NCBI RefSeq assembly: GCF_902652985.1
Contig: NC_047015.1
Coordinates: 33,542,001 to 33,606,000, forward strand
Source of the DNA: Pecten maximus
Lineage: Eukaryota
Length of the DNA: 64,000 nucleotides
Direction: 5' to 3'
Shown one piece after another: positions 11,901 through 25,396 of the stretch. The first letter of the stretch is position 1; each line of letters begins with the position of its first letter. The translations under genes and the position numbers were made by a program. The notes under the pieces were generated by a model. That model was not told where the DNA came from and did no database searches. It saw nothing but the letters and a program-made list of their open reading frames with translations.

Positions 11901-12517
11901 ACGCTCCTTGTCCGACCCCTGTTGCTGCGAGGATGTTACTGTGTGCCAATATGAGACATTTTAAAGGGGGGGATCACTATGTTATTGTGTCCCCAGAAAA
12001 GTATGGTGGACACTTAAAGATTCACTTTACACGTCAATCTTTAGTTGTTCGGATTTTGTTTCCTAACCGCTTATCACATCAATTTGTAAATTACTATGTG
12101 GCTTTGTCAGAATGAATTACAGTTTTGAGTTCAAACCCCATGTCAATATTTCAATTTTACTCGAGTTATTGCCCTTTGAAAATAAGAATTTTCCCCCGCT
12201 ACTGCTTGCTTCATCACTTTGTTACTTGATAGATGGCTTTATGATATTGAATCACAGATCGAGTCTGAACCAATGTGTTGAAATTTTCATTTTTTGCTGG
12301 AGTTATGAATATATTTGCACATTGTAAATTCGCATAATTAGCAATCAGGTCTGTTTTTCTACAGCTTGCCACATCATATTAATAATGGATTGCAGGTCAT
12401 ACTTGAAACCTGTGTTAATATTCTTTATCATTTTGCTGGAGTTACGGCCCCTTGGACATAAGAAATTCTCATAATTGTTTCCCGTATTTTTAGCGAAATG
12501 TTTGCCGTATCAATTTC

Positions 12518-14086
12518 GGGTTGTTTTTACTTTGCCGGTCCCCAGAAGTGTATTCAATGCGCATGACCCATGAACTTACGTGACCCGAGGTCGGTTGCCA
12601 GGTCGAGTAATACTATCCGCCATTTTGTTTTCTCGCTTCGGTCAGGTTAGGTATTCTAAGCGGGGTTTTGGGGCGTCAGCCCCTAATAGATAATAAAGGA
12701 CTTACCTTACACTTGAAAGTCATCCAAGCTACCATTTAGATTGGTTATGTTAGCAAATGGAAGTCTAGGTTTTTTGGAAACGACTGAGACAATACTGTTT
12801 GTTGATCGAACCCCAACGACTTCGTTCTTGATGGTATTTGGGTCAAAGACCTCCTTAATTAGCTCACAAAACTTAAGAACTTTTTCAGGTGTGTCATTAA
12901 GGAAAAGTTTTCTGACGCAGTATTGTGCAAAATAGCTGTCGTACAGAGTTTTAACTGTTCCTGTTTTTTGGCAATGAATGTTTTAGTGCTCTCCATGTGG
13001 ACTCAATAGTGTTTGTGTGAGCGCCGGACACTGGATCAACGAAATTGACTGAGTGGTTTACGGTCAAATGCGTGAATCCCTCTTTCTTTAAGTAGGAGTA
13101 CGCCTTCAATCACTGATGATAGTTGTTCCCGGTCTTATGTTGTTTTTAATAATTTCTATTTAGTGTATTAGCAGTTCTGTTCTCCACTGTACAGAAAAAA
13201 CAACAACACTTTTTAGAGTCTCTTTCAATCCCTACAAACACCCAAATCCCGTCAACCTTTCGACCTTTGTGAAACTTCCTCTTCCATAATTTGCTTTCGT
13301 CTATTTCGACGACTTTGCCTTCTCCCCCAACGATGTTATTTTCATTTTTACACAGAATTTCGGTACAAACCTCTCTTGCAAAATTATACCAGTCATCTAT
13401 AGTTTTATGGGAAATACTGAGTTCATGACAAACAAATTCTTGGTTGCATTTATAAACCCAAAAATATGTAATGTACACAATTTGCTCCAAAGTCAAATTA
13501 TGGTTTTCAAACCATGATCCCTTTCGTACAGACACTTTTTTTATGACATTTCTTGTCACTGCAACGCCAAACATAACAATCACTGGAGTAGGATTTGTCT
13601 TTACGGAGTCCAAGAACGCCCTTTTCACAACATTTACATGGTAAGGCACGTACATCCAATAATAATCCCAAGCCGATAAGCCACTCGATTAAAATTTCAA
13701 CAGTTTCACATTTCGATACTTAACCTCGCAATCGGAAAGGCATGTTAAACAAAAGCACATGTCAATGTTTACATTTTTGAACCAAATATAAACGTTACAA
13801 ATGCGCATGCGTCGCACGCGCCCCATGTCAACAGAGGGGAATTTCCAAAATGTGAACCGAGAAACCATCATGAAAACTATGCGATTTCGCTGTTAAAAAA
13901 CAACATTTAAAACGTTGGTTTTTAACCGAAATAAGGTATGTAGAACTCAATTTTTACCTTAAAAACACCCCAAAACCCCTAGATAAGATTTTAGAGAGAA
14001 GCGCGAATTCTCTTATAAGACACCGACTTCGGCGGTGTTAAGCTTTAGCGCCATTTTTCTGGGGACCGGCAAAGTAAAAATGCTCC
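12518..14086 (-). mobile_element. Merlin (IS1016/IS1595-like) DNA transposon
   Basis: TIRs of ~29 bp, GG....TTTTTACTTTGCCGGTCCCCAGAA, at 12518-12547 and 14057-14086, enclosing a transposase. TSD not convincingly preserved. Confidence 0.9.
12706..13761 (-). pseudogene. Merlin/ISXO2-type DDE transposase, frameshifted
   Basis: Zinc ribbon PCKCC..WRCSDKKC; SVRKGSWF; GGEGKVVEIDESK..RKFHKGRKVDGIWVFVGIER; IRPGTTIISD; HLTVNHSVNFVDPVSGAHTNTIESTW. Several frameshifts. Confidence 0.9.
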
Positions 14087-14255
14087 GGCAATATACAGCA
14101 ACGGTTTTTTTACCACTTGTCACATCAATATCATATCAAATTATGTAACATGATACATTTTTTTTCATGAATTAAGAATTTCGAGTTCGAGTTCGACTTT
14201 AATCTTTGTATCAATTTCCATCTATTACCGGAGTTATGTCCCACACAATAGTATC

Positions 14256-15929
14256 ATGATACCATCACTATATGACATAAATGGTTGTGGTGTGGAGGTC
14301 ACACCCCGTCAACCAACCAACCTCCAACATAAATCATCATCTTTTTTATGGCGACCATATTTTTTTTTAAAATACATCCTTTCGATTAAATAAGCGGATG
14401 CGACACACTTGTGTAGAGTTCTGGCGAGTTCTAGACGACATATTTGTTATCAACTTCTTATTTATGTTATCAATATCTACTCAAAATTGTGAAGCTCTAA
14501 ACCATATTTGTGGTAATGCAGGTTCTAAGTTTTTAGAGAAATATCAAAAGTTTACACTGCAAGAAGACTTTGGAGTGTCCAATAATAATACCCGTTTTAT
14601 ACCATTACATGTTGATCGTAGGAAGAGACTAAAATAGCCCCACTGCAGAATTTCCCTCCGTGCCTCTGCCTACATTATAACACTTTTAAATAAAAGATCC
14701 ACATTTGACTCTGTCTATTGGTGTTTTGAACCCCTAGAACAAAAACAAAAACTTCCTGTAAACATGATGGAATTCGCCGAGATGTTGTGGTTGACGTGTT
14801 AGAACCATTCTTATCAGAGTAAGATTGGTATTTAAGCTAAATCTTTTAGATAAAGTCATACAAATGCTAACTTCGTATCTCTATAAAAGTTAGTATGCTC
14901 TCGACTGCAGGACTCTTGTACGTTATGAGATCAAGACACGTTTAATCTGAATATTCTCACCTTACTCGGCTTCACCGAATGGCTTGATCATCATATAAAC
15001 AATAGCCAGATATTAGATGTAACAGACACGATTTACAAACACAGAAAAACGCGGACCAGGGACCATACAGTGACACCAGCGCCCTCTATATCCTGTCAAA
15101 GACAACCTATACGGTGGCTCAATCAAAGCCTCTCATGTGGCGCCTCTCGACGCCCGGGAATACTTACTTGTCGGTTTCAATCCAAGGCAATCGAAGATAC
15201 TTACACCACGCAACGAAAACTGAATCTTCAATCCACCGATTTAATTCTTCTATCTTGTTAGTATGTGTCGTTCTGATGACGCTAGGAGCTCATTTCCTTT
15301 CCGTGGAGTGCTTTTCTAAATGCCTTGGGTACTTCTGTAGACAATATCCCTGTGTAAGTTTATACGTACGAGGACTTGACACAGGTGTGAATATCGTTCT
15401 GGGCCTAATTAGGCTGGGACGGAAGGTTAGAAATTCATTGGAATAAAACATCATCAGAATAGGACTGCTTTTTAATCTTACCATTTTATTGGCCGTCTAT
15501 TTAAACAACATAAAGTCGCTACCAATTTATTTCCCTTTGAAAGTCGCCAATGAACACTCCCTGGGCAGTAGCATTAACATCTGCAAAAGCATTTTTAAAG
15601 ATTAAAGATAAGTTGCTCGTGAGGTATAAATGTCAGCTAATAAAAAGATACGTCGTTTGTATTTTTTATATATAGCCTTGTACGGTACACTGTAAATGAT
15701 CTGTGTTATGTATCGAGGTGTGGTCATAGCGTGGGGATGTCATACATTTTAGGCAGAAAGACGTCTTACAAAAACTGATAGTTGGACGAGCCTTCACTTA
15801 CACGGGGTTTCTTTGTCGGCTTTAACACATCAAGTATAATATGTGTCTAACAAACACGTCTTATTCAATATGACAAACAAAGAGAAAGAAAACAAGAAAA
15901 ACATACTTCTGGGATTTCTTTCCATTCTC
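14256..15929 (+). repeat. 1.67-kb direct repeat, copy 1 (left of the LINE)
   Basis: Aligns to 20839-22471 with roughly 30 substitutions and about 5 indels (manual count), one of them ~37 bp. Confidence 0.95.
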
Positions 15930-15939
15930 TAACTGTGTT

Positions 15940-17043
15940 TTGAGAACACAGATTGACAGCCTAATTCAGGAAAACGAAGATACTCGCCGCGCTCTAGAGA
16001 AGAACACATGCGAAAATTCTTCGTTAAAGAGATCTATCGCAGTTCTTACGTCTGAATTTCAAGTGGTACAGAAAGACAATTCTGATCTGACAAAACAGAT
16101 AGGTGACCTTAAACGATTAGGTATGAAATTCAAATTTTCAATGAAGGACATGAATGAAAAGGTCACTGATTGCAGCATAATAACACGGAGGTTTGACGAC
16201 AACAAGTCTAATGGCACCGAAGGTATCAAGAATAGACTCAAACATGTCATGCAAACCACAAAACAGTGTGAGGACGACATTCACGCGATGGAAGGTTCAA
16301 TAAAATCATTACAGAAGGTCGCTGACAACACACAAAAGCAATTAACTGACATTAAAAGACAATTGAAGCACAAGATACACGAAAATGTTGAAAAATCCAA
16401 CCCTGTTGAGGAAATATACAGGGTCGAAGTGAACAACCGGTTTATGCCGTTACAAGATCCACCTTCACCAAAACTACCAGTTACATTGTGTGAAATCTTG
16501 GAGAAGGCCCATCCACCCCCAAACACCAAAGCTCAGAATCCCGACACCCCTCTTAAAATGGTCAACCCTACAAGTGAAACAGCTGGACCTGTTAAGAGCT
16601 TTTCCGCTATTGTGAGCAACAAAACACCAAAAACGAACGACAAAGTGAAACCTGACGCGACGTCATCAATACCCGTACACTTTCCGACATCGGTGTGTAG
16701 ATCTTCTCTGTCTTCGTCATCTGCAGTGCCCATAAAGAGAGACTTCGTTGGATTCACTACTCCAGAGAGAAGAAAGAGAACACGCAGATACTACATTTAC
16801 GGTATAAATAAGAGAATGTCCTCAGAACAAGGAATGAGAAGTTTCCTTGAAGAGAGAAGCGTTACAGTTACGTTCCTACGATATTTTGAAAAGCGTTGGA
16901 AGCGAACGGCGTCGGCACAGGTAAACGTTGTTGACGATGAACACAACAACCTACAGGATCCATCCTTCTGGCCTGAAGGTGTGTCTGTTCGGCCCTGGCT
17001 CCCCAAAACTGTTTTTGTCACCGAACATGAACAAAATACATAA
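15940..17043 (+). CDS. LINE ORF1 protein (coiled coil, P/S-rich linker, RRM-like C-terminus); N-terminus missing
   Basis: Heptad-rich N-terminal half; C-terminal YIYGIN...FWPEGVSVRPW typical of LINE ORF1. Begins at TTG at the element junction, with an in-frame TGA upstream at 15871. Confidence 0.8.
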   Translation: MRTQIDSLIQENEDTRRALEKNTCENSSLKRSIAVLTSEFQVVQKDNSDLTKQIGDLKRLGMKFKFSMKDMNEKVTDCSIITRRFDDNKSNGTEGIKNRLKHVMQTTKQCEDDIHAMEGSIKSLQKVADNTQKQLTDIKRQLKHKIHENVEKSNPVEEIYRVEVNNRFMPLQDPPSPKLPVTLCEILEKAHPPPNTKAQNPDTPLKMVNPTSETAGPVKSFSAIVSNKTPKTNDKVKPDATSSIPVHFPTSVCRSSLSSSSAVPIKRDFVGFTTPERRKRTRRYYIYGINKRMSSEQGMRSFLEERSVTVTFLRYFEKRWKRTASAQVNVVDDEHNNLQDPSFWPEGVSVRPWLPKTVFVTEHEQNT

Positions 17044-20000
17044 CAAATTAAATCTTATGTGTTGGAATATAGAAGGTGTCATGGCAGGGACGCCGTACCT
17101 TCTACGATGCCTGGATGAATACAATATTGATATTTGTGGTTTGTCTGAACATTGGGTGAGAGAGTACAACTTGTCATTCTTTGACACGTTTAATCATTGT
17201 GGTTACTCCAGTATAGTAAAACCTGTACACGAAATAGACCCTTTTCGGTATAAATGTAATATCAGAGGCGGCGTTTGTATCCTTTTTAAGTCCGATCTAA
17301 ACGTTCAAGAGATACTAACCGATAGTCCTCGGATAGTTGGTATTGAAATTCAAGAATCTGATAGTAACTACATCTATGTATTTGCGGTATATATGCCGGC
17401 ATCTTCAAGACACTTTGATGCCTTCAAGGAAACTCTCGACGTATTAGACTCTCTTGTTACTGTATATTCAGAGAAGGGTAAAGTTATCATCATAGGTGAC
17501 ATGAATGTAAAAGTTAAGGGTCCAAGGTACCAATTTCTGTGTAATGAAAGATCAGAAGTTTTTGAAAAGTTTTTGGAAAGAAACAATTTGCTTTCGGTAA
17601 ACGTACAGGCCAATTGTAAAGGTCCTAATTATACATTTTGTCCTACCACGGGTCACTATACGATGATTGACCATATACTTGTTGAAAAAACCATAGATAA
17701 TTTAATAGAAAAGTCTGAAGTATTAGACGAGTGCGAAGTAAACACGTCAGAACATCTCCCTGTCCTGTGTTCTGTAAGAACTCCCAAAATTCCATCCATC
17801 CAGTGCAATAGTGAATTTTTGAGATATAACTGGAAAAAAGCAGTAAATAGTGACCAAATCAAAAAGTATAAGTCTACAGTCGATAATTATCTCAGTTCAG
17901 TAATATTGCCTCAAAATGTAACGTCGACTTCAGACATAGATATTTATTATGATGTTCTGAAATCTGTTTTGCTCAGTGCATCTAGTCAATGCATACAGAA
18001 ACGCAAATTCAGAAGGCACTTAAAGCCTTACTGGAATGAAGAGTTAACATTTGTGCACAATCTAATGCGTAGTAAAAGGCAACTTTGGAAAGACAATGGC
18101 CAATGTAGAGGTACTGATGTTTATTTTTTAGACTATAAGTCATGTAAAACCATTTTTAGAAAGAAGCTAAGAATTGCTTTTAACCAATATATGAAAGGCC
18201 AATTCGAAGAAATTGATAGATCAGGTGAAGTTGACCAAACGCTGTTTTGGCAACTATATAAAAGTAAATCACATAAACCCAAATTATCACAGACAGAACT
18301 AAAATATGATGGTAATGTCCTACGTAATCCCAGCGAAATAGCAAAGGCATGGGGTATACATTTTAGTAAATTATTTCAAAATGAATCCAATACATTATTC
18401 GATGAAGAGTTCTCAAATCATGTGAACAGTAATGTATCAAACATGTGTGTAAAAGCAATGCATGACAAAGATGTATTTCTTGAAAAAGAATTCAGTGTGA
18501 AAGAGGTTTCGAATATATGCAAATGTCTGAAGAATGATAAATCTGGTGGTCCAGATGGTCTTGTGTATGAGCATGTCAAATATTGTAATGATCTGATGAT
18601 TGAACATATCACGTTTTTGTTTAATCTTATAATTAAGTACGAGTATATTCCAAAATCTTGGAAAGTCGGCATCATTGTTACTCTTTATAAAGGTGATAAA
18701 AAACCGAAAGATGACCCCAATAGCTACAGAGGTATTACATTAATTCCTGTATTTTTTAAGATTTTTGAAACACTTTTGTCTACCCGTTTAAATCCCATTC
18801 TAGAATCTCATACTTTTCCTAACAGACAGCAATCAGCCTATCGGAAAAAACTGTGTAGTCTATGCACTTCATTTAATTTACAAGAGAGTATTAATTATAA
18901 CTTAGAGAATGGATCTGAAGTTCTTGTTGCTTTTCTTGATAGCAATAAAGCCTTTGATTCTGTATGGCAAGAAGGCTTATTCTACAAATTGTACAATATG
19001 GGTATTAAAGGGAAAATATGGCTTATTATGAAACAAATGTACTCGTGTTTCACTAGTAATGTTGTTTTTAATGGTTTTAAATCAGAAAGTGTAATTATGA
19101 AACGAGGGATCTTACAAGGAGGTTCTTTGTCTGCTAAAATGTATCTTGTTTTTATCAATGATTTGTTAAACGAAGTAGAATCCAGTGGAAAAGGAGCAGT
19201 AGTCCATTCATCACGTGTTAATATACCTACACAAGCAGATGATATATGTGTAATTACCAATAACGTCGAAAGTCTCCAACACTTACTATCTATGTGTGAC
19301 AATTACAGTAGAAAGTGGCGATTTACATTTTCCGCCTCTAAATCTAAAATTGTTGTTTTCACATACAAAAAGAAGCCAAGTACTTGTCGAAATGTATCCT
19401 TTTACGAAAAGAATTTACCAATTGTAGATAGCATAAATCATGTTGGTGTTTTATTAAACAATAGAAACAACAATGTCGAACGTACAGAACGTGCCTGCTC
19501 CAAATTAAAATGTGGTGTAATGTACTTAATTCGTTCTGGAGCACACCAATGTGCCCTCAATCCTTTAACCATTGCTAAAATCATTAAATGTAAAGTATAT
19601 CCTTCCGCACTCTATGGTTGCGAATTGTGGCAGTTAAAGAACAATGAAATGTACATGCTTGAAAAAGCACAGAACTTCATTATAAAATCAATTCAGGGTT
19701 TTAATGTAAGAACAAGAACAGACATGTGTACGTCATTGATCGGTTGGTTTTCAATAGAAGTATATATCAGTGTGAAAAAATTACTATTCCTTGGTAGAAT
19801 ATGTTCCATGGATGTTGGAGTTTTGACGCGCGAAATTTCTATAAAGCGCATATTTGATTACAAACTGTGTACTTTCTCCAGAGGTTTTATTCCCGACATT
19901 GTCAATATTTTGACAAAATATAATTTGAATTATGTTCTTGGTGAATTCTTGAAGAGTGGCTTGTTCCCAAACAGATGCCAATGGAAACGATTAGTGAATG

Positions 20001-20482
20001 ACCATGTAAGAAATTGTGAGGAGTTTAATCTATGTGAAAGAATGAAAACTGATAAAGAATTTTCTCGTTTCGGTCTTTTGCATAATAAAATACAACCATA
20101 TTCAATATGGAAATTAGCTCTACATTTCCCCCAATACAGTTCATGTTTTAAACAAATTGTTAAACTTTGTGTCGAAATGCGAGATGACGAAAATGTATTT
20201 TTGTGTCAATATTGTGGTTTAATTTACAATGATGTAATCTTACATAGCGTGCTTGAATGCTCTCATACAGAGTCTTTGCGTGACCAACTGTGGTGTGTTC
20301 TTTGTACTATAAAAGATATCGATTTTGTATGTTACCTTAACACGTTGTCAAATTACCATCTTCTCCATGTTCTTCTTGGGGGTATCGTCAATTATGACTT
20401 ATCCTCATACGAACTCGAGGACTTCAGAGTTAATTCAATCGTTATTGTATTCAAGATTCTTCAATGCAGTGGTATTTTGTAA
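17027..20482 (+). CDS. LINE ORF2: APE endonuclease + reverse transcriptase + C-terminal CCHC knuckle (1151 aa from the ATG at 17027)
   Basis: EN motifs WNIEG, LSEHW, GDMN, IDHI, SEHLPV; RT motifs KSGGPDG, YRGITL, FLDSNKAFDSV, GILQGGSLS, PTQADD; CQYC..H....C. Frame is uninterrupted. Confidence 0.95.
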   Translation: MNKIHNKLNLMCWNIEGVMAGTPYLLRCLDEYNIDICGLSEHWVREYNLSFFDTFNHCGYSSIVKPVHEIDPFRYKCNIRGGVCILFKSDLNVQEILTDSPRIVGIEIQESDSNYIYVFAVYMPASSRHFDAFKETLDVLDSLVTVYSEKGKVIIIGDMNVKVKGPRYQFLCNERSEVFEKFLERNNLLSVNVQANCKGPNYTFCPTTGHYTMIDHILVEKTIDNLIEKSEVLDECEVNTSEHLPVLCSVRTPKIPSIQCNSEFLRYNWKKAVNSDQIKKYKSTVDNYLSSVILPQNVTSTSDIDIYYDVLKSVLLSASSQCIQKRKFRRHLKPYWNEELTFVHNLMRSKRQLWKDNGQCRGTDVYFLDYKSCKTIFRKKLRIAFNQYMKGQFEEIDRSGEVDQTLFWQLYKSKSHKPKLSQTELKYDGNVLRNPSEIAKAWGIHFSKLFQNESNTLFDEEFSNHVNSNVSNMCVKAMHDKDVFLEKEFSVKEVSNICKCLKNDKSGGPDGLVYEHVKYCNDLMIEHITFLFNLIIKYEYIPKSWKVGIIVTLYKGDKKPKDDPNSYRGITLIPVFFKIFETLLSTRLNPILESHTFPNRQQSAYRKKLCSLCTSFNLQESINYNLENGSEVLVAFLDSNKAFDSVWQEGLFYKLYNMGIKGKIWLIMKQMYSCFTSNVVFNGFKSESVIMKRGILQGGSLSAKMYLVFINDLLNEVESSGKGAVVHSSRVNIPTQADDICVITNNVESLQHLLSMCDNYSRKWRFTFSASKSKIVVFTYKKKPSTCRNVSFYEKNLPIVDSINHVGVLLNNRNNNVERTERACSKLKCGVMYLIRSGAHQCALNPLTIAKIIKCKVYPSALYGCELWQLKNNEMYMLEKAQNFIIKSIQGFNVRTRTDMCTSLIGWFSIEVYISVKKLLFLGRICSMDVGVLTREISIKRIFDYKLCTFSRGFIPDIVNILTKYNLNYVLGEFLKSGLFPNRCQWKRLVNDHVRNCEEFNLCERMKTDKEFSRFGLLHNKIQPYSIWKLALHFPQYSSCFKQIVKLCVEMRDDENVFLCQYCGLIYNDVILHSVLECSHTESLRDQLWCVLCTIKDIDFVCYLNTLSNYHLLHVLLGGIVNYDLSSYELEDFRVNSIVIVFKILQCSGIL

Positions 20483-20838
20483 TTATTTCATATGAAAAAG
20501 AGAACTTGTAATTATTATTAATGTTGTTAATAATTCATACATGTATATAAAATGCATTTGCATTAGACCACATAATGAAATGACTGCTATTCATTTTCTA
20601 AAAATGAAGTACGTATATATGTGCTAACTAAGAATCTAATGTGTTTTAACTTAAGAAACATGCGAAGAAATTTCCTTTACTAACATCATGTAATCATTAT
20701 TATATCTGTAGTTTATTGTGTAACGCGTGAATCCTTATGCGAGAGGTGAAAATGAGCGTGAATGAATTTTGTTCTAATTTGTAAATCATTTCTGTATACT
20801 CTTCACATCTTGGAGGAAATAAAGAAATAATAATAATA

Positions 20839-22471
20839 ATGATACCATCCACATATGACATAAATGGTTGTGGTGTGGAGGTCACACCCCGTCAACCAAC
20901 CAACCTCCAACATAAATCATCATCTTTTTTATGGCGACCATAAGTTTTTTTTTAAATACATCCTTTCGATTAAATAGGCGGATGCGACACACTTATTAAC
21001 TTCTTATTTATGTTATCAATAACTACTCAAAATTGTGAAGCTCTTAACCATATTGTGGTAATGCAGGTTCTAAGTTTTTAGAGAAATATCAAAAGTTTAC
21101 ACTGCAAGAAGACTTTGGAGTGTCCAATAATAATACCCGTTTTATACCATTACATGTTGATCGTAGGAAGAGACTAAAATAGCCCCACTGCAGAATTTCC
21201 CTCCGTGCCTCTGCCTACATTATAACACTTTTAAATAAAAGATCCACATTTGACTCTGTCTATTGGTGTTTTGAACCCCTAGAACAAAAACAAAAACTTC
21301 CTGTAAACATGATGGAATTCACCGAGATGTTTTGGTTGACGTGTTAGAACCATTCTAATCAGAGTAAGATTGGTATTTAAGCTAAATCTTTTAGATAAAG
21401 ACATACAAATGCTAACTTCGTATCTCTGTAAAAGTTAGTATGCTCTCGACTGCAGGACTCTTGTACGTTATGAGATCAAGACACGTTTAATCTGAATATT
21501 CTCACCTTACTCGGCTTCACCGAATGGCTTGATCATCATATAAACAATAGCCAGATATTAGATGTAACAGACACGATTTACAAACTGAAAAACGCGGACC
21601 AGGGACCATACAGTGACACCAGCGCCCTCTATATCCTGTCAAAGACAACCTATACGGTGGCTCAATCAAAGCCTCTCATGTGGCGCCTCTCGACGCCCGG
21701 GAATACTTACTTGTCGGTTTCAATCCAAGGCAATCGAAGATACTTACACCACGCAACGAAAACTGAATCTTCAATCCACCGGTTTAATTCTTCTATCTTG
21801 TTAGTATGTGTCGGTCTGATGACGCTAGGAGCTCATTTCCTTTTCGTGGAGTGCTTTTCTAAATGCCTTGGGTACTTCTGTAGACAATATCCCTGTGTAA
21901 GTTTATACGTACGAGGACTTGACACAGGTGTGAATGTCGTTCTGGGCCTAATTAGGCTGGGACGGAGGGTTGGAAATTTATTGGAATAAAACATCATCAG
22001 AATAGGACTGCTTTTTAATCTTACCATTTTATTGGCCGTCTATTTAAACAACATAAATCGCTACCAATTTATTTCCCTTTGAAAGTCGCCAATGAACACT
22101 CCCTGGGCAGTATCATTAACATCTGCAAAAGCATTTTTAAAGATTAAAGATAAGTTGCTCGTGAGGTATAAATGTCAGCTAATAAAAAGATACGTCGTTT
22201 GTATTTTTTATACATAGCCTTGTACTGTACACTGTAAATGTTCTGTGTTATGTATCGAGGTGTGGTCATAGCGTGGGGATGTCATACATTTTAGGCAGAA
22301 AGACGTCTTACAAAAACTGATAGATGGACGAGACTTCACTTACACGGGGTTTCTTTGTCGGCTTTAACACATCAAGTATAATATGTGTCTAACAAACACG
22401 TTTTATTCAATATGACAAACAAAGAGAAAGAAAACAAGAAAAACATACTTCTGGGATTTCTTTACATTCTC
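20839..22471 (+). repeat. 1.63-kb direct repeat, copy 2 (immediately after the LINE tail)
   Basis: Begins ATGATACCATC directly after (TAA)n and ends at CATTCTC, the same point where copy 1 joins the LINE 5' end. Confidence 0.95.
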
Positions 22472-22929
22472 ATATCTGACACTGGATAAAGGTCAAAATT
22501 GCACCACAGAGACAAAAGTGTCTAAACTCTCTGACTTTATTCTGTAGCCTCCCGATTTTCGTGGTTTGTGATATATGAACAAGTATGCAAGAAAAAAAAT
22601 ACTAAAAATTGTGAAGCAGGCCTCTCCGATCATACATAACCGCTTAGTGGATTGCATAATTGTTAGACTATGGCTACTTCAAACTGATCGACTCAAGGTC
22701 CAATTCATACAGCTACATGTATTTCACTACACACATTGGTATGACATTTCTTCAGGTTCATTGTACTGACACCGGAAGTCATGTCACAGACACATTGATG
22801 TGACATAGCTTCCGGTTCATTATACTGACACCGGAAATCATGTCACAGACAAATTGACATGGCCTCCTTTCCAGTCACTAACGTGCATAATTACATAAAT
22901 TCACGATCTAGGGACATAACAAAAAGCCT

Positions 22930-23393
22930 TTCTAACACATGACTTTGGTATGTCACGGCCTTGGCACAGAATCCACAGCATTCCTAACATATGCTTCTTG
23001 TATGTCACGGCCTGGGCTTAAATCCTACAGCCTTCCTAGCAAATGACTCTCGTAAGTCAGGGCTTGGCACAGAACCCACAGCCTACCTAACACAGGACTC
23101 TTGTATATAAGGGCTTGGCAAAGAACCCACAGCCTACCTAACACATGACTCTTGTATATCAGGGCTTGGCACAGAACCCACAGCCTACCTAACACATGAC
23201 TCTTGTATATCAGGGCTTGGCACAGAACCCACAGCCTACCTAACACATGACTCTTGTATGTCACGGCTTGGCACAGAACCCACAGCCTACCTAACACATG
23301 ACTCTTGTATATCAGGGCTTGGCACAGAACCCACAGCCTACCTAACACATGACTCTTGTATGTCACGGCTTGGCACAGAACCCACTTCCTACC
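22930..23393. repeat. 51-bp minisatellite derived from the SINE tRNA/B-box segment, ~9 copies
   Basis: Unit CAGGGCTTGGCACAGAACCCACAGCCTACCTAACACATGACTCTTGTATAT. Confidence 0.9.
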
Positions 23394-23526
23394 TCGCAGG
23401 GCCGAGCGCTCAACTACAAGACCAAACGTGAGGCAGCGTCAAGAAAGACAAAATGATCACAACTTCAGTCGCCTCTTGCGAATCATGAATGGGACAGTCG
23501 GTACATGTATATCCCCTAACCGCAGG
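23345..23526 (-). mobile_element. 5' part of a SINE related to 5134-5662
   Basis: Minus strand CCTGCGGTTAGGGGA..TACCGACTGTCCC..CGCAAGAGGCGACTGAA..GCCTCACGTTTGG..AGTTGAGCG..GGGTTCTGTGCC..GACATACAAGAGTC aligns with 5134-5348. Confidence 0.8.
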
Positions 23527-25396
23527 TACTCAGAGTTGGTTACTAGATTTCTAGGTAACAGACTCAGACGAAAACAAACAAAACTTGTCCTTAAAATATT
23601 TCGTCAGCTTGTCAATATTCACTCTGCTTGCCAACAGGTCCTGTTTGTGGCTTTTTGTTTGATATACAAGATGTTATTTGTTATACAAGATGTCATTTTT
23701 TTTATACAAGATGTTATGTTTACAGGTCTCGAATTCATACACGAGATCAATTTCCATCAATTTTCTCTAGAGTGTCAACATATCTAAAGACGATGTATAA
23801 GTGAACTTCGTCAATAGCCAGAATTGCTAATTTATTTATTAGCCCACTCTACCACTGCGTTACAATTTAATCTATCGATCCAAAACCTGTACAGTTTTCC
23901 ATTAGAATATCTGTATAAAAGGAATATTGGTTTTGTGGTACCTCATTCAATTTCATGTTTATTGGGAATCGGTGATTCATTTTACAGTAACATCGAAGTT
24001 TCAGAACAATTTACATTCTTTCCATTTTTACCTCAATTAGAAGACCGTTTTTGTTGGGGGTTTTTTTTGTGGGGAGAAAAGGGGGGGGGGGGGGGGGGGG
24101 GGCTTTTTTTGTCGTCGTTTGTTTTGTTTTGTTGGGGTTTTTTTTACTCTTCTTGTTTTCGCACAACTATATTTCGCCTAGGATACCGGTTCACGTGCTT
24201 GCATTTTCAAAATATATCTCATCGTTTATCTTTTATCATTTATGCTGGAAATGTTGAATTAATGTAGGGAAGGGAATGAACTCTTAACGCCTACGTACAA
24301 AAGAAACATATTTTGCGTCCATGTGCGATCGGTCAAGATGTACCAATAGAACCCGGACTATGGCATGCAAGTAAGTTTTAGATTGCTCGCCTCGATTAAT
24401 ATCCTTCCCTTTCTTTTGCCGCTAGTAGACTGGAAGGGGATAGTTCGCGAATGGACGCTATATGTTGCGTGGTGCATTAACTGAAAGACTTTTCTCTTGC
24501 ACCTTTTTTTTTTTTTTTTTTCTAATTGCTTTACTCGCCCCATCCGCCTAACCATCCCCACCTGAATATTCGCTCAACCCACTAGCTGACATTGTTGTGT
24601 CAACAATTTAAGATTACAAAAATAAGCATAAGGTATGTAAATATTTCAATATGGTTTTAGCTGAGATCGTTACCAAGAAAGAAAGGCTCTAGTAGAAAAA
24701 AACGTATGCATCTTTCTTGAGGATATCGAACAAATCACGCGCCCTCGTGAGTCTGGCTTATACAGTTCTATGAACAAAGCTATATCACACGTTTTCGTCG
24801 TGAAACATCGTGACATGTATCAGCCATTGATATGTGTTAGACGTATAATCACATGTGTTCACATTACCGCTGACACGTGTTCACATTACCGCTGACACGT
24901 GTTCACATTACCGCTGTAACGTGCTCATCTGTCGTTTTTCATGGACCCCTAACTTGTAGGATGTATTTACATGTGATCTGGGATGATAGTCGATTCTTAT
25001 GACATTCTGCTGAATGGTATCATGGAACGGATATATATGTGTGTGTCGATTGTATGTATACATGGATTCCGTAATTGGATTGAAAGTCTAAAGTATTCTG
25101 AATTCAACGTTGAAATTCTGGTTATTACTGGCCTTGAAAATGAAATTAGTTAATTAATGGAGTTGATACGCCTGTCCTTCACTGTACTGTCAATGAAGGA
25201 GAGGACGCTCACTCTTTCGGATCACCTGGTCCTATTCTCCTTGTACTTTTTCAATGGTATTCAAGTAAATCTTTATTTTTTGCTAGGATTTTGGCCTCGT
25301 TTTCTCAATATTCAGTTAGAAATACGGTTGTTTTTTAACATGTGTTGGGTAGCTTTATAGTTTGAGCGTTTGCCGTCTTCACCTCTGCCAACTTCC

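What the first reader, a model, noticed from the sequence alone, without database searches (positions are those of the whole stretch)
14256..22471. Intact young LINE enclosed by a 1.67-kb duplication whose copies are too divergent for a simple TSD
Seen: the arrangement is X-D-LINE-D'-Y. D' starts exactly at the (TAA)n tail, with AT/ATGAT microhomology as expected for target-primed reverse transcription. D ends exactly at the 5' truncation point in ORF1. The geometry is that of a TSD about 100-fold longer than usual. However, D and D' differ by ~2% plus ~5 indels along their whole length (manual count), while 4.5 kb of ORF1+ORF2 carries no stop or frameshift. Inference: the copies had already diverged when they were joined. 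Possible routes are (a) an insertion bridging two homologous chromosomes, primed on one allele and resolved on the other, i.e. a retrotransposon-mediated unequal exchange; (b) recombination between two independent insertions 1.67 kb apart on different haplotypes; (c) D is an LTR-like terminal repeat carried by the element; (d) an assembly haplotype switch.
Basis: partly seen in the sequence, partly recalled or inferred. Interest (0 to 1): 0.75.

Follow-up and report, generated by a model that had tools for sequence, protein, structure and literature searches.

The report
LINE insertions duplicating kilobases of target
A young jumping gene sits between two copies of 1.67 kb of host DNA, as over half of its relatives in this animal genome sit between long duplicates, and here the two copies are two different natural alleles, likely because the insertion joined the two parental chromosomes, although later recombination or an assembly mix-up could give the same picture.

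Summary
Confirmed, and wider than reported. D (14256-15929) and D' (20839-22471) flank a 5'-truncated LINE with an open ORF2 and differ by 30 substitutions and 5 indels; the LINE has 7 private changes in 4887 bases. D occurs nowhere else, so it is no LTR. Long duplications are the family's habit: 17 of 30 scoreable copies have one (22 to 2140+ bp, median 418), none a short one. A sister family (6 of 18) and unrelated LINEs (3 of 13) have them too, so the host may set the length. In three public samples, LINE-free alleles carry D's letter at 19 of 30 sites and D' letters at 25 of 30: the copies are two standing alleles. A second young copy (C7) shows the same full-length divergence. Best reading: insertion primed on one homolog and finished on the other (0.45); rivals are later allelic recombination (0.33), assembly mixing (0.13) and two insertions (0.04). 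No read spans either junction. Nearest precedent: Chlamydomonas Dualen-4b, but this element lacks the second endonuclease. The scan noted similar long duplications before on other genomes (mushroom, skate, bacteria), not for this family.

The parts
14040..14255 (.). X, left flank next to D; differs from the LINE-free allele that carries D'-type letters
   Evidence: X5 contig 16: 4 other letters and 21 gap letters over 14066-14255, then 0 differences over 20839-21082
14256..15929 (+). D, left copy of the duplicated target; starts at a C|AT site; allele 1
14409..14447 (+). 38-bp stretch present in D and absent from D'; both states occur in runs X3, X4 and X5
   Evidence: tables 5 and 8
15930..15940 (+). 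11 extra bases at the 5' junction; 7 of them match the reverse complement of the LINE's first bases (weak: P about 0.085)
15941..17043 (+). 5'-truncated ORF1 (from codon 235 of 601); coiled-coil-like middle
16925..20482 (+). ORF2, open: APE endonuclease, reverse transcriptase, C-terminal CCHC; no restriction-like endonuclease motif behind it
20483..20827 (+). 3' UTR
20828..20838 (+). (TAA)n tail, running into D' with AT microhomology
20839..22471 (+). D', right copy of the duplicated target; allele 2, close to the alleles of runs X1 and X5
22472..23086 (.). Y, right flank; follows D directly in LINE-free alleles
   Evidence: loose end behind 15929 in X3 reads Y; contigs of X1 and X4 run from D' into Y

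Best explanation
D and D' are a 1.67-kb duplication of the insertion site, of a kind that flanks over half of this LINE family's copies, and the two copies are two different standing alleles, likely because the new LINE copy was primed on one homolog and its far end was joined to a break 1.67 kb further along on the other homolog. Steps. Shown: the duplication starts at a pyrimidine|AT site right at the tail in every duplicated copy, and ends at the 5' junction with short microhomology or a few extra bases; the LINE-free allele is X-D-Y; D and D' letters both occur in LINE-free alleles. Inferred: the endonuclease nicks at the X|D border and reverse transcription attaches the LINE to D'-Y; there is no nearby second nick; the free cDNA end is captured by a DNA end hundreds to thousands of bases downstream and joined by microhomology-type end joining. 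If that end lies on the same chromatid or the sister, the copies are identical (most cases); if it lies on the homolog, the product is X1-D1-LINE-D2-Y2, an unequal crossover bridged by the LINE (this locus and C7:31.3M).
For: Family habit: 17 of 30 scoreable copies have a flanking direct duplication, median 418 bp, 12 over 100 bp, 6 over 1 kb; control: 16 of 28 own flank pairs against 3 of 756 crossed pairs. Left border pyrimidine|AT in 17 of 17 (11 C, 6 T; read by eye). LINE-free allele: X5 contig joins 14255 to 20839; X3 runs from 15929 into Y. D letters seen in other samples at 19 of 30 substitution sites and 5 of 5 indels (17 of 30 in X4 or X5 alone); D' letters seen directly at 25 of 30; both states directly at 14 substitutions and 3 indels (tallied by hand). 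X4's contig carries D letters at the last four sites up to 7 bp from the junction and runs on into Y (its 22 other letters are all listed, none at those sites). Flanks switch with the copies: the X5 contig identical to D' over 244 bases differs at 6 places in 190 bases of X (rough P 0.007). Second case: C7:31.3M, LINE with 1 private change in 2865 bases, duplication with 44-46 substitutions, 13 indels and a 454-bp repeat in one copy only, spread from base 81 to 2440 of 2523 (P about 1e-9). Three other kilobase duplications (C11, C12, C362) differ by 0.14-0.40%, as their age predicts. A rough model favours this all-or-none pattern over uniform later crossovers by about 290-fold, or 22-fold without the window.
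Against: No read or contig shown spans either junction in the six runs laid, so the structure rests on the assembly alone. In an unrelated LINE (C5:39.87M) a 430-bp duplication has 7 differences, none in the first 150 bases next to the tail, a block pattern that later recombination predicts (about 0.05 under whole-length divergence, worked out by hand). The likelihood ratio rests on five loci, assumes that alleles at C11, C12 and C362 are as divergent as here (not measured), and ignores exchanges that resolve at the junction. D' letters at the last four sites are inferred from counts, not read directly. Public contigs collapse alleles and are not phased. 11 of 30 D letters were seen in no sample. 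One of the samples may be the source of the assembly.
Confidence: 0.45

Rival explanations
1. The insertion made an identical 1.67-kb duplication in cis (same or sister chromatid). Later, an ordinary allelic crossover or conversion with a LINE-free homolog, resolved within about 100 bases of the tail or at the junction itself, replaced one whole copy and its flank.
For: Long duplications are usual and mostly near-identical. The LINE is old enough (0.14% private changes) for crossovers within a kilobase if recombination is not suppressed. The three letters at 14267-14269 are seen in no sample, so the first informative difference lies 103 bases from the tail. C5:39.87M shows a block-like pattern.
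Against: It predicts partly exchanged copies far more often than fully exchanged ones; among five clean kilobase duplications two are fully divergent, three are not, and none is partial. C362, with more private LINE changes, has only 4 differences in 1725 bases.
Confidence: 0.33
2. Assembly mixing: the animal is heterozygous (LINE with two identical copies on one homolog, LINE-free allele on the other) and the collapsed assembly took one copy's letters from the other homolog.
For: No junction-spanning record was seen. D-versus-D' divergence equals allelic divergence at the locus (X4 differs from D at 22 of 1422 bases). No alternative haplotig of D exists in the assembly.
Against: Both copies differ right up to their own junctions (7 bases from the 5' junction; 103-154 bases from the tail, with a 38-bp indel), where junction-spanning reads should fix the letters. 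Each copy matches a natural allele over unbroken stretches (0 differences over 208 and 244 bases). Mixing should show only part of the allelic differences. The C7 case holds a 454-bp insertion in one copy. These are arguments, not tests.
Confidence: 0.13
3. Two independent insertions 1.67 kb apart on different haplotypes recombined through the LINE (in the animal or in the assembler).
For: The D|Y border also falls on C|AT, the family's target motif (chance 0.018 at a fixed place). Five of the LINE's 7 private changes lie in 780 bases.
Against: The family has tens of young copies in 918 Mb, so two within 2 kb in one orientation are unlikely, and it would have to happen at C7 too. Both halves of the window's LINE group with the same copies (C8, C11, C9). 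With 17 duplications, one C|AT right border is within chance.
Confidence: 0.04
4. D is a terminal repeat carried by the element, or a repeat that inserted twice.
For: None beyond the geometry.
Against: D has two strong matches in the genome, both here; every other copy is flanked by its own, different duplication; D is single in LINE-free alleles.
Confidence: 0.01

Closest known systems
Dualen-4b_cRei LINE of Chlamydomonas reinhardtii (PMC9977147; passages seen, supplements not seen)
   Same: More than half of insertions flanked by duplications over 50 bp, median 900 bp; duplicated sequence on either side of the LINE.
   Different: An alga, de novo lines, and the authors suggest the two endonucleases (APE plus RLE) as the cause. 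This element is in an animal and has APE only; no allelic difference between copies was described in the passages seen.
Large-TSD L1 inserts in NER-deficient human cells (PMC5223499; passages seen)
   Same: Most inserts have duplications over 100 bp, many over 1 kb; the authors suggest a distant, unrelated second nick.
   Different: Cultured mutant cells and L1; in normal cells such events are under 10%. Here they are inherited and frequent. NER genes of this host were not examined.
L1-bridged tandem duplications and translocations in tumours and cell lines (PMC7058536, 10.1101/2024.12.14.628481, 10.1101/2024.08.27.596794; passages seen)
   Same: cDNA primed at one site and joined to another DNA end; 1-10 kb tandem duplications regarded as large TSDs; sister-chromatid bridging and break-induced replication proposed.
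   Different: Somatic and rare; partners named in the passages seen are sister chromatids or non-homologous chromosomes, not the homolog at the same locus.
Zebrafish ZfL2-2 in DT40 cells (PMC2666801; passages seen)
   Same: End-joining-dependent 5' junction; one 1228-bp duplication.
   Different: 1 of 25 insertions; short alterations dominate.
RTE-X / Proto2-type LINEs of bivalves (PMC10294476; passages seen)
   Same: Two ORFs, APE-RT-CCHC ORF2, full length about 6 kb, (TAA)n tail; likeness to these clades is recalled from memory.
   Different: Clade not established here: no labelled reference sequences were available.

Membership tests
APE-type non-LTR retrotransposon (LINE) | ORF2 with APE endonuclease and reverse transcriptase | tested here: met
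   PF03372, PF14529 and PF00078; catalytic-type motifs present
APE-type non-LTR retrotransposon (LINE) | Common 3' end with simple-repeat tail, variable 5' truncation | tested here: met
APE-type non-LTR retrotransposon (LINE) | Short (5-30 bp) target-site duplication | tested here: not met
   one duplication of 22 bp, 16 of 38 bp or more, 13 copies with none found
Target-site duplication made at insertion | Duplicated sequence is single in the empty allele | tested here: met
   X5 joint 14255 to 20839; X3 and X4 run from D into Y
Target-site duplication made at insertion | Copies abut the tail and the 5' end, with the family's nick motif at the left border | tested here: met
   11 extra bases at this 5' junction
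Target-site duplication made at insertion | Copies no more divergent than the element's age allows | tested here: not met
   30 observed, 4.7 expected
Dualen | Both APE and restriction-like endonuclease in one ORF | tested here: not met
   73 residues and no PD motif after the CCHC; no such Pfam hit
LTR or terminal-repeat element | The same repeat flanks other copies | tested here: not met
RTE-X / Proto2 clade | Placement in an RT phylogeny with labelled references | not testable with these tools
   23 homologs without clade names; Atlas clusters unnamed; the classification paper is not held
LINE-bridged exchange between homologs | Left copy and flank from one haplotype, right copy and flank from another | tested here: inconclusive
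   supported by unphased contigs; no phased or spanning reads
LINE-bridged exchange between homologs | The two alleles were joined at the moment of insertion | not testable with these tools
   needs de novo insertions or a population series

The most novel reading that the evidence does not exclude
In this animal's germ line, LINE insertion normally finishes without a nearby second nick: the new copy is joined to a distant DNA end, duplicating hundreds to thousands of bases, across several LINE lineages. In a sizeable share of the longest events that end belongs to the homologous chromosome, so retrotransposition itself makes unequal crossovers that put two alleles in tandem. LINE families filed as 'without TSD' may have been scored with windows too short to see this.
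Probability: 0.4. Interest if true: 0.82.

Novelty: new variant of a known kind. Interest (0 to 1): 0.64.

Why it matters
How the second strand of a LINE insertion is cut and joined is an open question. An animal genome in which long duplications are the rule gives a natural series of these junctions, and allelic markers in a very heterozygous host tell which chromosome supplied each end. If the homolog is used, each such insertion is also a crossover and a small segmental duplication that fixes both alleles on one chromosome. There is a practical point too: published TSD searches use ceilings of 30 or 49 bp (PMC2912911, PMC13295347; passages seen), which would miss 15 or 16 of these 17 duplications. 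Long flanking repeats also let an insertion be removed by recombination (suggested in PMC5223499, passage seen).

Tried and rejected
LTR-like or high-copy D: rejected. Fold-back origin of the 11 extra bases: a 7-base inverted match exists but random 11-mers reach it 8.5% of the time; not used as evidence. A nick motif at the right borders of duplications: no clear excess by eye; not used. Mosaic LINE as a sign of two insertions: not seen. A haplotig holding the other allele: none for D, C362 or C7. Hi-C run X21 and run X17 gave no cover of D; no conclusion drawn. Clade assignment failed for want of labelled references. 'Long duplications are special to this family' was my reading until the control: unrelated LINEs have them too, 3 of 13 against 17 of 30 (Fisher P = 0.054). 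The L237 listing was one base out of register and is void; its identity is taken. Rows dropped before the count of 30: two copies inside minisatellites (C7:44.5M, C16:13.26M), the C6:20.3M tandem array and its contig copies, ten loci that share flanks (one insertion re-copied), and C1543 (contig ends inside the element). Dropped from the control of 20: seven in tandem repeats. Literature searches gave no paper on an animal LINE family with routine kilobase duplications or on same-locus interhomolog bridging; the library lacks most subscription journals, and Repbase reports and the supplements of the papers read were not seen. PMC4245944 was seen as a search listing only.
Full report
Observation. 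A self-comparison of the window finds the duplication at 14253-15929 against 20836-22471. A global alignment of 14256-15929 with 20839-22471 gives 30 substitutions in 1632 columns (1.84%) and 5 indels, one of 38 bp. The differences are evenly spread. Between the copies lies a LINE with an open ORF2 that has APE endonuclease and reverse transcriptase domains and a CCHC motif with no restriction-like endonuclease motif behind it. Five other genomic copies match from window base 15941 and continue upstream with a common sequence, so the element starts at 15941 and 11 extra bases separate it from D. It lacks about 1130 bases of its 5' end, including 234 of 601 ORF1 codons. The host is an animal with a 918-Mb assembly; earlier notes on this genome call it a scallop (unchecked).

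D is unique host DNA. A search of the genome gives two strong matches, both in the window, and five weak short ones. In public runs the LINE-free allele exists: an X5 contig joins 14255 to 20839, and X3 and X4 contigs run from D into Y. So D was duplicated with the insertion and is no part of the element.

The copies are too divergent for the element's age. The window's LINE differs from its nearest copy at 11 of 4857 columns and has 7 private changes in 4887. That predicts about 4.7 differences between D and D'; 30 are seen (P = 4e-7).

The differences are standing alleles. I laid contigs of X3, X4, X5 and X17 on 14040-15990 (X17 gave nothing) and of X1, X4, X5 and raw reads of X21 on 12500-24500 (X21 gave no cover of D). 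Tallied by hand: D's letter occurs at 19 of 30 substitution sites and all 5 indels; D' letters are read directly at 25 of 30; both states are read directly at 14 substitutions and 3 indels. The 38-bp indel has both states in all three runs. One sample may be the source of the assembly, but X4 and X5 alone show D's letter at 17 sites. X4's contig has D's letters at 15782, 15791, 15860 and 15922 and goes on into Y. Eleven D letters were seen in no run. The X5 contig that is identical to D' over 244 bases differs from the window's X at 6 places in 190 bases (rough P 0.007), and X1's contigs are within 3 letters and 1 gap of D' over 1502 bases and within 2 letters of Y over 503. The window therefore reads as X1-D1-LINE-D2-Y2. 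The contigs are unphased and collapse alleles, and none of those shown spans a junction.

Long duplications are the family's habit. Three searches (the two DNA searches scored 40 of 145 and 40 of 109 candidates, so young copies are favoured) gave the loci whose flanks I fetched. After dropping copies in minisatellites, one tandem array, ten loci that share flanks and one cut contig, 30 remain. Seventeen have a direct duplication that starts at the tail: 22, 38, 55, 63, 82, 135, 142, 394, 418, 650, 717, 1301, 1440, 1633, 1725, 1764 and 2140 bp (shorter copy), median 418. Three of these lie in or hold local tandem repeats, and three end 40-111 bases before my reference's start, so the clean set is smaller. 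Thirteen have none within the 3.5 to 18 kb searched, and no short duplication was found beside them. A 13-mer test finds 16 of 28 own flank pairs and 3 of 756 crossed pairs. All 17 left borders are pyrimidine|AT; the AT is partly defined by the tail, but no G precedes it (P = 0.005 for 16). Most 5' junctions have 1-5 bases of microhomology or a few extra bases.

It is not special to this family. A sister family at 73% DNA identity has duplications of 45-286 bp at 6 of 18 independent loci, and one further relative has a duplication of over 1.2 kb. As a control I took 20 young copies of LINEs with 24-30% protein identity to this ORF2. Seven lie in tandem repeats. Of the other 13, three have long abutting duplications (436, 261 and 879 bp), ten have none, and none has a short one. 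The rate is lower than 17 of 30, at the edge of significance (P = 0.054). Either the host sets the length or these LINE lineages share the trait.

How often are the copies allelic? Of five clean kilobase duplications, C11, C12 and C362 differ by 0.14, 0.40 and 0.23%, in line with age; the window and C7:31.3M differ by 1.8 and 2.2% along their whole length. The C7 element has 1 private change in 2865 bases, and its left copy holds a 454-bp repeat that the right copy lacks. A sixth (C15:35.3M) is older and repeat-rich and was not scored. A rough likelihood comparison favours an all-or-none process over uniform later crossovers by 290-fold, or 22-fold when the window is left out because it was picked for its divergence. 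Against this, the 430-bp duplication of an unrelated LINE at C5:39.87M has 7 differences, all beyond base 150, which looks like a partial exchange.

Mechanism. I commit to this: the endonuclease nicks at pyrimidine|AT, reverse transcription ties the new copy to D'-Y, no second nick forms nearby, and the free end is joined by microhomology to a DNA end further downstream. On the same or sister chromatid this gives identical copies; on the homolog it gives the window's structure. The nick site, junction anatomy, empty allele and allelic letters are shown. The order of events and the use of the homolog at insertion are inferred (0.45). Later allelic recombination (0.33), assembly mixing (0.13) and two insertions (0.04) remain. 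That D is a long target-site duplication whose copies are two alleles in this assembly is much firmer, about 0.9.

Comparison. Dualen-4b of Chlamydomonas makes duplications of median 900 bp in over half of its insertions, which the authors link to its two endonucleases (PMC9977147, passages); this element has one. L1 in NER-deficient cells gives duplications over 100 bp in 57-91% of inserts, against under 10% in HeLa (PMC5223499, passages). ZfL2-2 gave one of 1228 bp in 25 (PMC2666801, passages). L1-bridged duplications in tumours are ascribed to sister chromatids or break-induced replication, and L1-bridged exchanges to non-homologous chromosomes (PMC7058536; 10.1101/2024.12.14.628481; 10.1101/2024.08.27.596794; passages). 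Eight searches of the library showed no report of routine kilobase duplications for an animal LINE family, nor of bridging between homologs at one locus; the library is incomplete and supplements were not read. The clade could not be tested.

Verdict. Real in the assembly, more than chance, and part of a genome-wide pattern. A new variant of a known kind. Interest 0.64: the long-duplication habit is well supported and useful; the interhomolog step, the most surprising part, is plausible but needs spanning reads.

Noticed in passing
G000:C10:6.79M, C17:29.0M, C3606, C7:13.5M, C99, C18:14.4M, C4:52.5M, C7:45.9M, C5:40.2M, C14:35.9M: Ten loci carry a piece of this LINE with shared flanks: one insertion that was re-copied inside another repeat.
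   Followed up: no
G000:C6:20.31-20.33M; contigs C3873, C3328, C360: A truncated copy of the LINE is part of a tandem array with units of 8.6 and 3.6 kb; the short unit is the LINE plus a 1234-bp duplicated flank, as if a long duplication seeded the array.
   Followed up: partly
G000:C18:32.727M (L110): A copy in which 39 bases of the element's own 5' end are joined directly to a point 1.2 kb inside it.
   Followed up: no
window 14933-15664 in run X5: The X5 alleles of D have further structural variants: a stretch 14986-15242 at about 2.7 times the depth, 1108 foreign bases before 15238, and a 16-bp deletion at 15786.
   Followed up: no
window 12500-14100: The left flank is a multi-copy repeat (depth several times that of D in three runs) with many deletion variants.
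   Followed up: no
window 26098-63050: Many minisatellite arrays with units of 19-50 bp, the longest 5.6 kb with a 23-bp unit.
   Followed up: no
G000:C7:31.300M; C3327, C13:29.35M: The 454-bp repeat found in only one copy of the C7 duplication also forms tandem arrays with a 1344-bp period elsewhere.
   Followed up: no
L227-L266: 7 of 20 young copies of unrelated LINEs lie in tandem repeats; tails are (AAATCTTG)n, (AAATCTG)n and (TGTAT)n.
   Followed up: partly
window 20828, runs X1 and X5: A variant of this LINE's 3' end continues with a (GAAT)n tail in place of (TAA)n.
   Followed up: no
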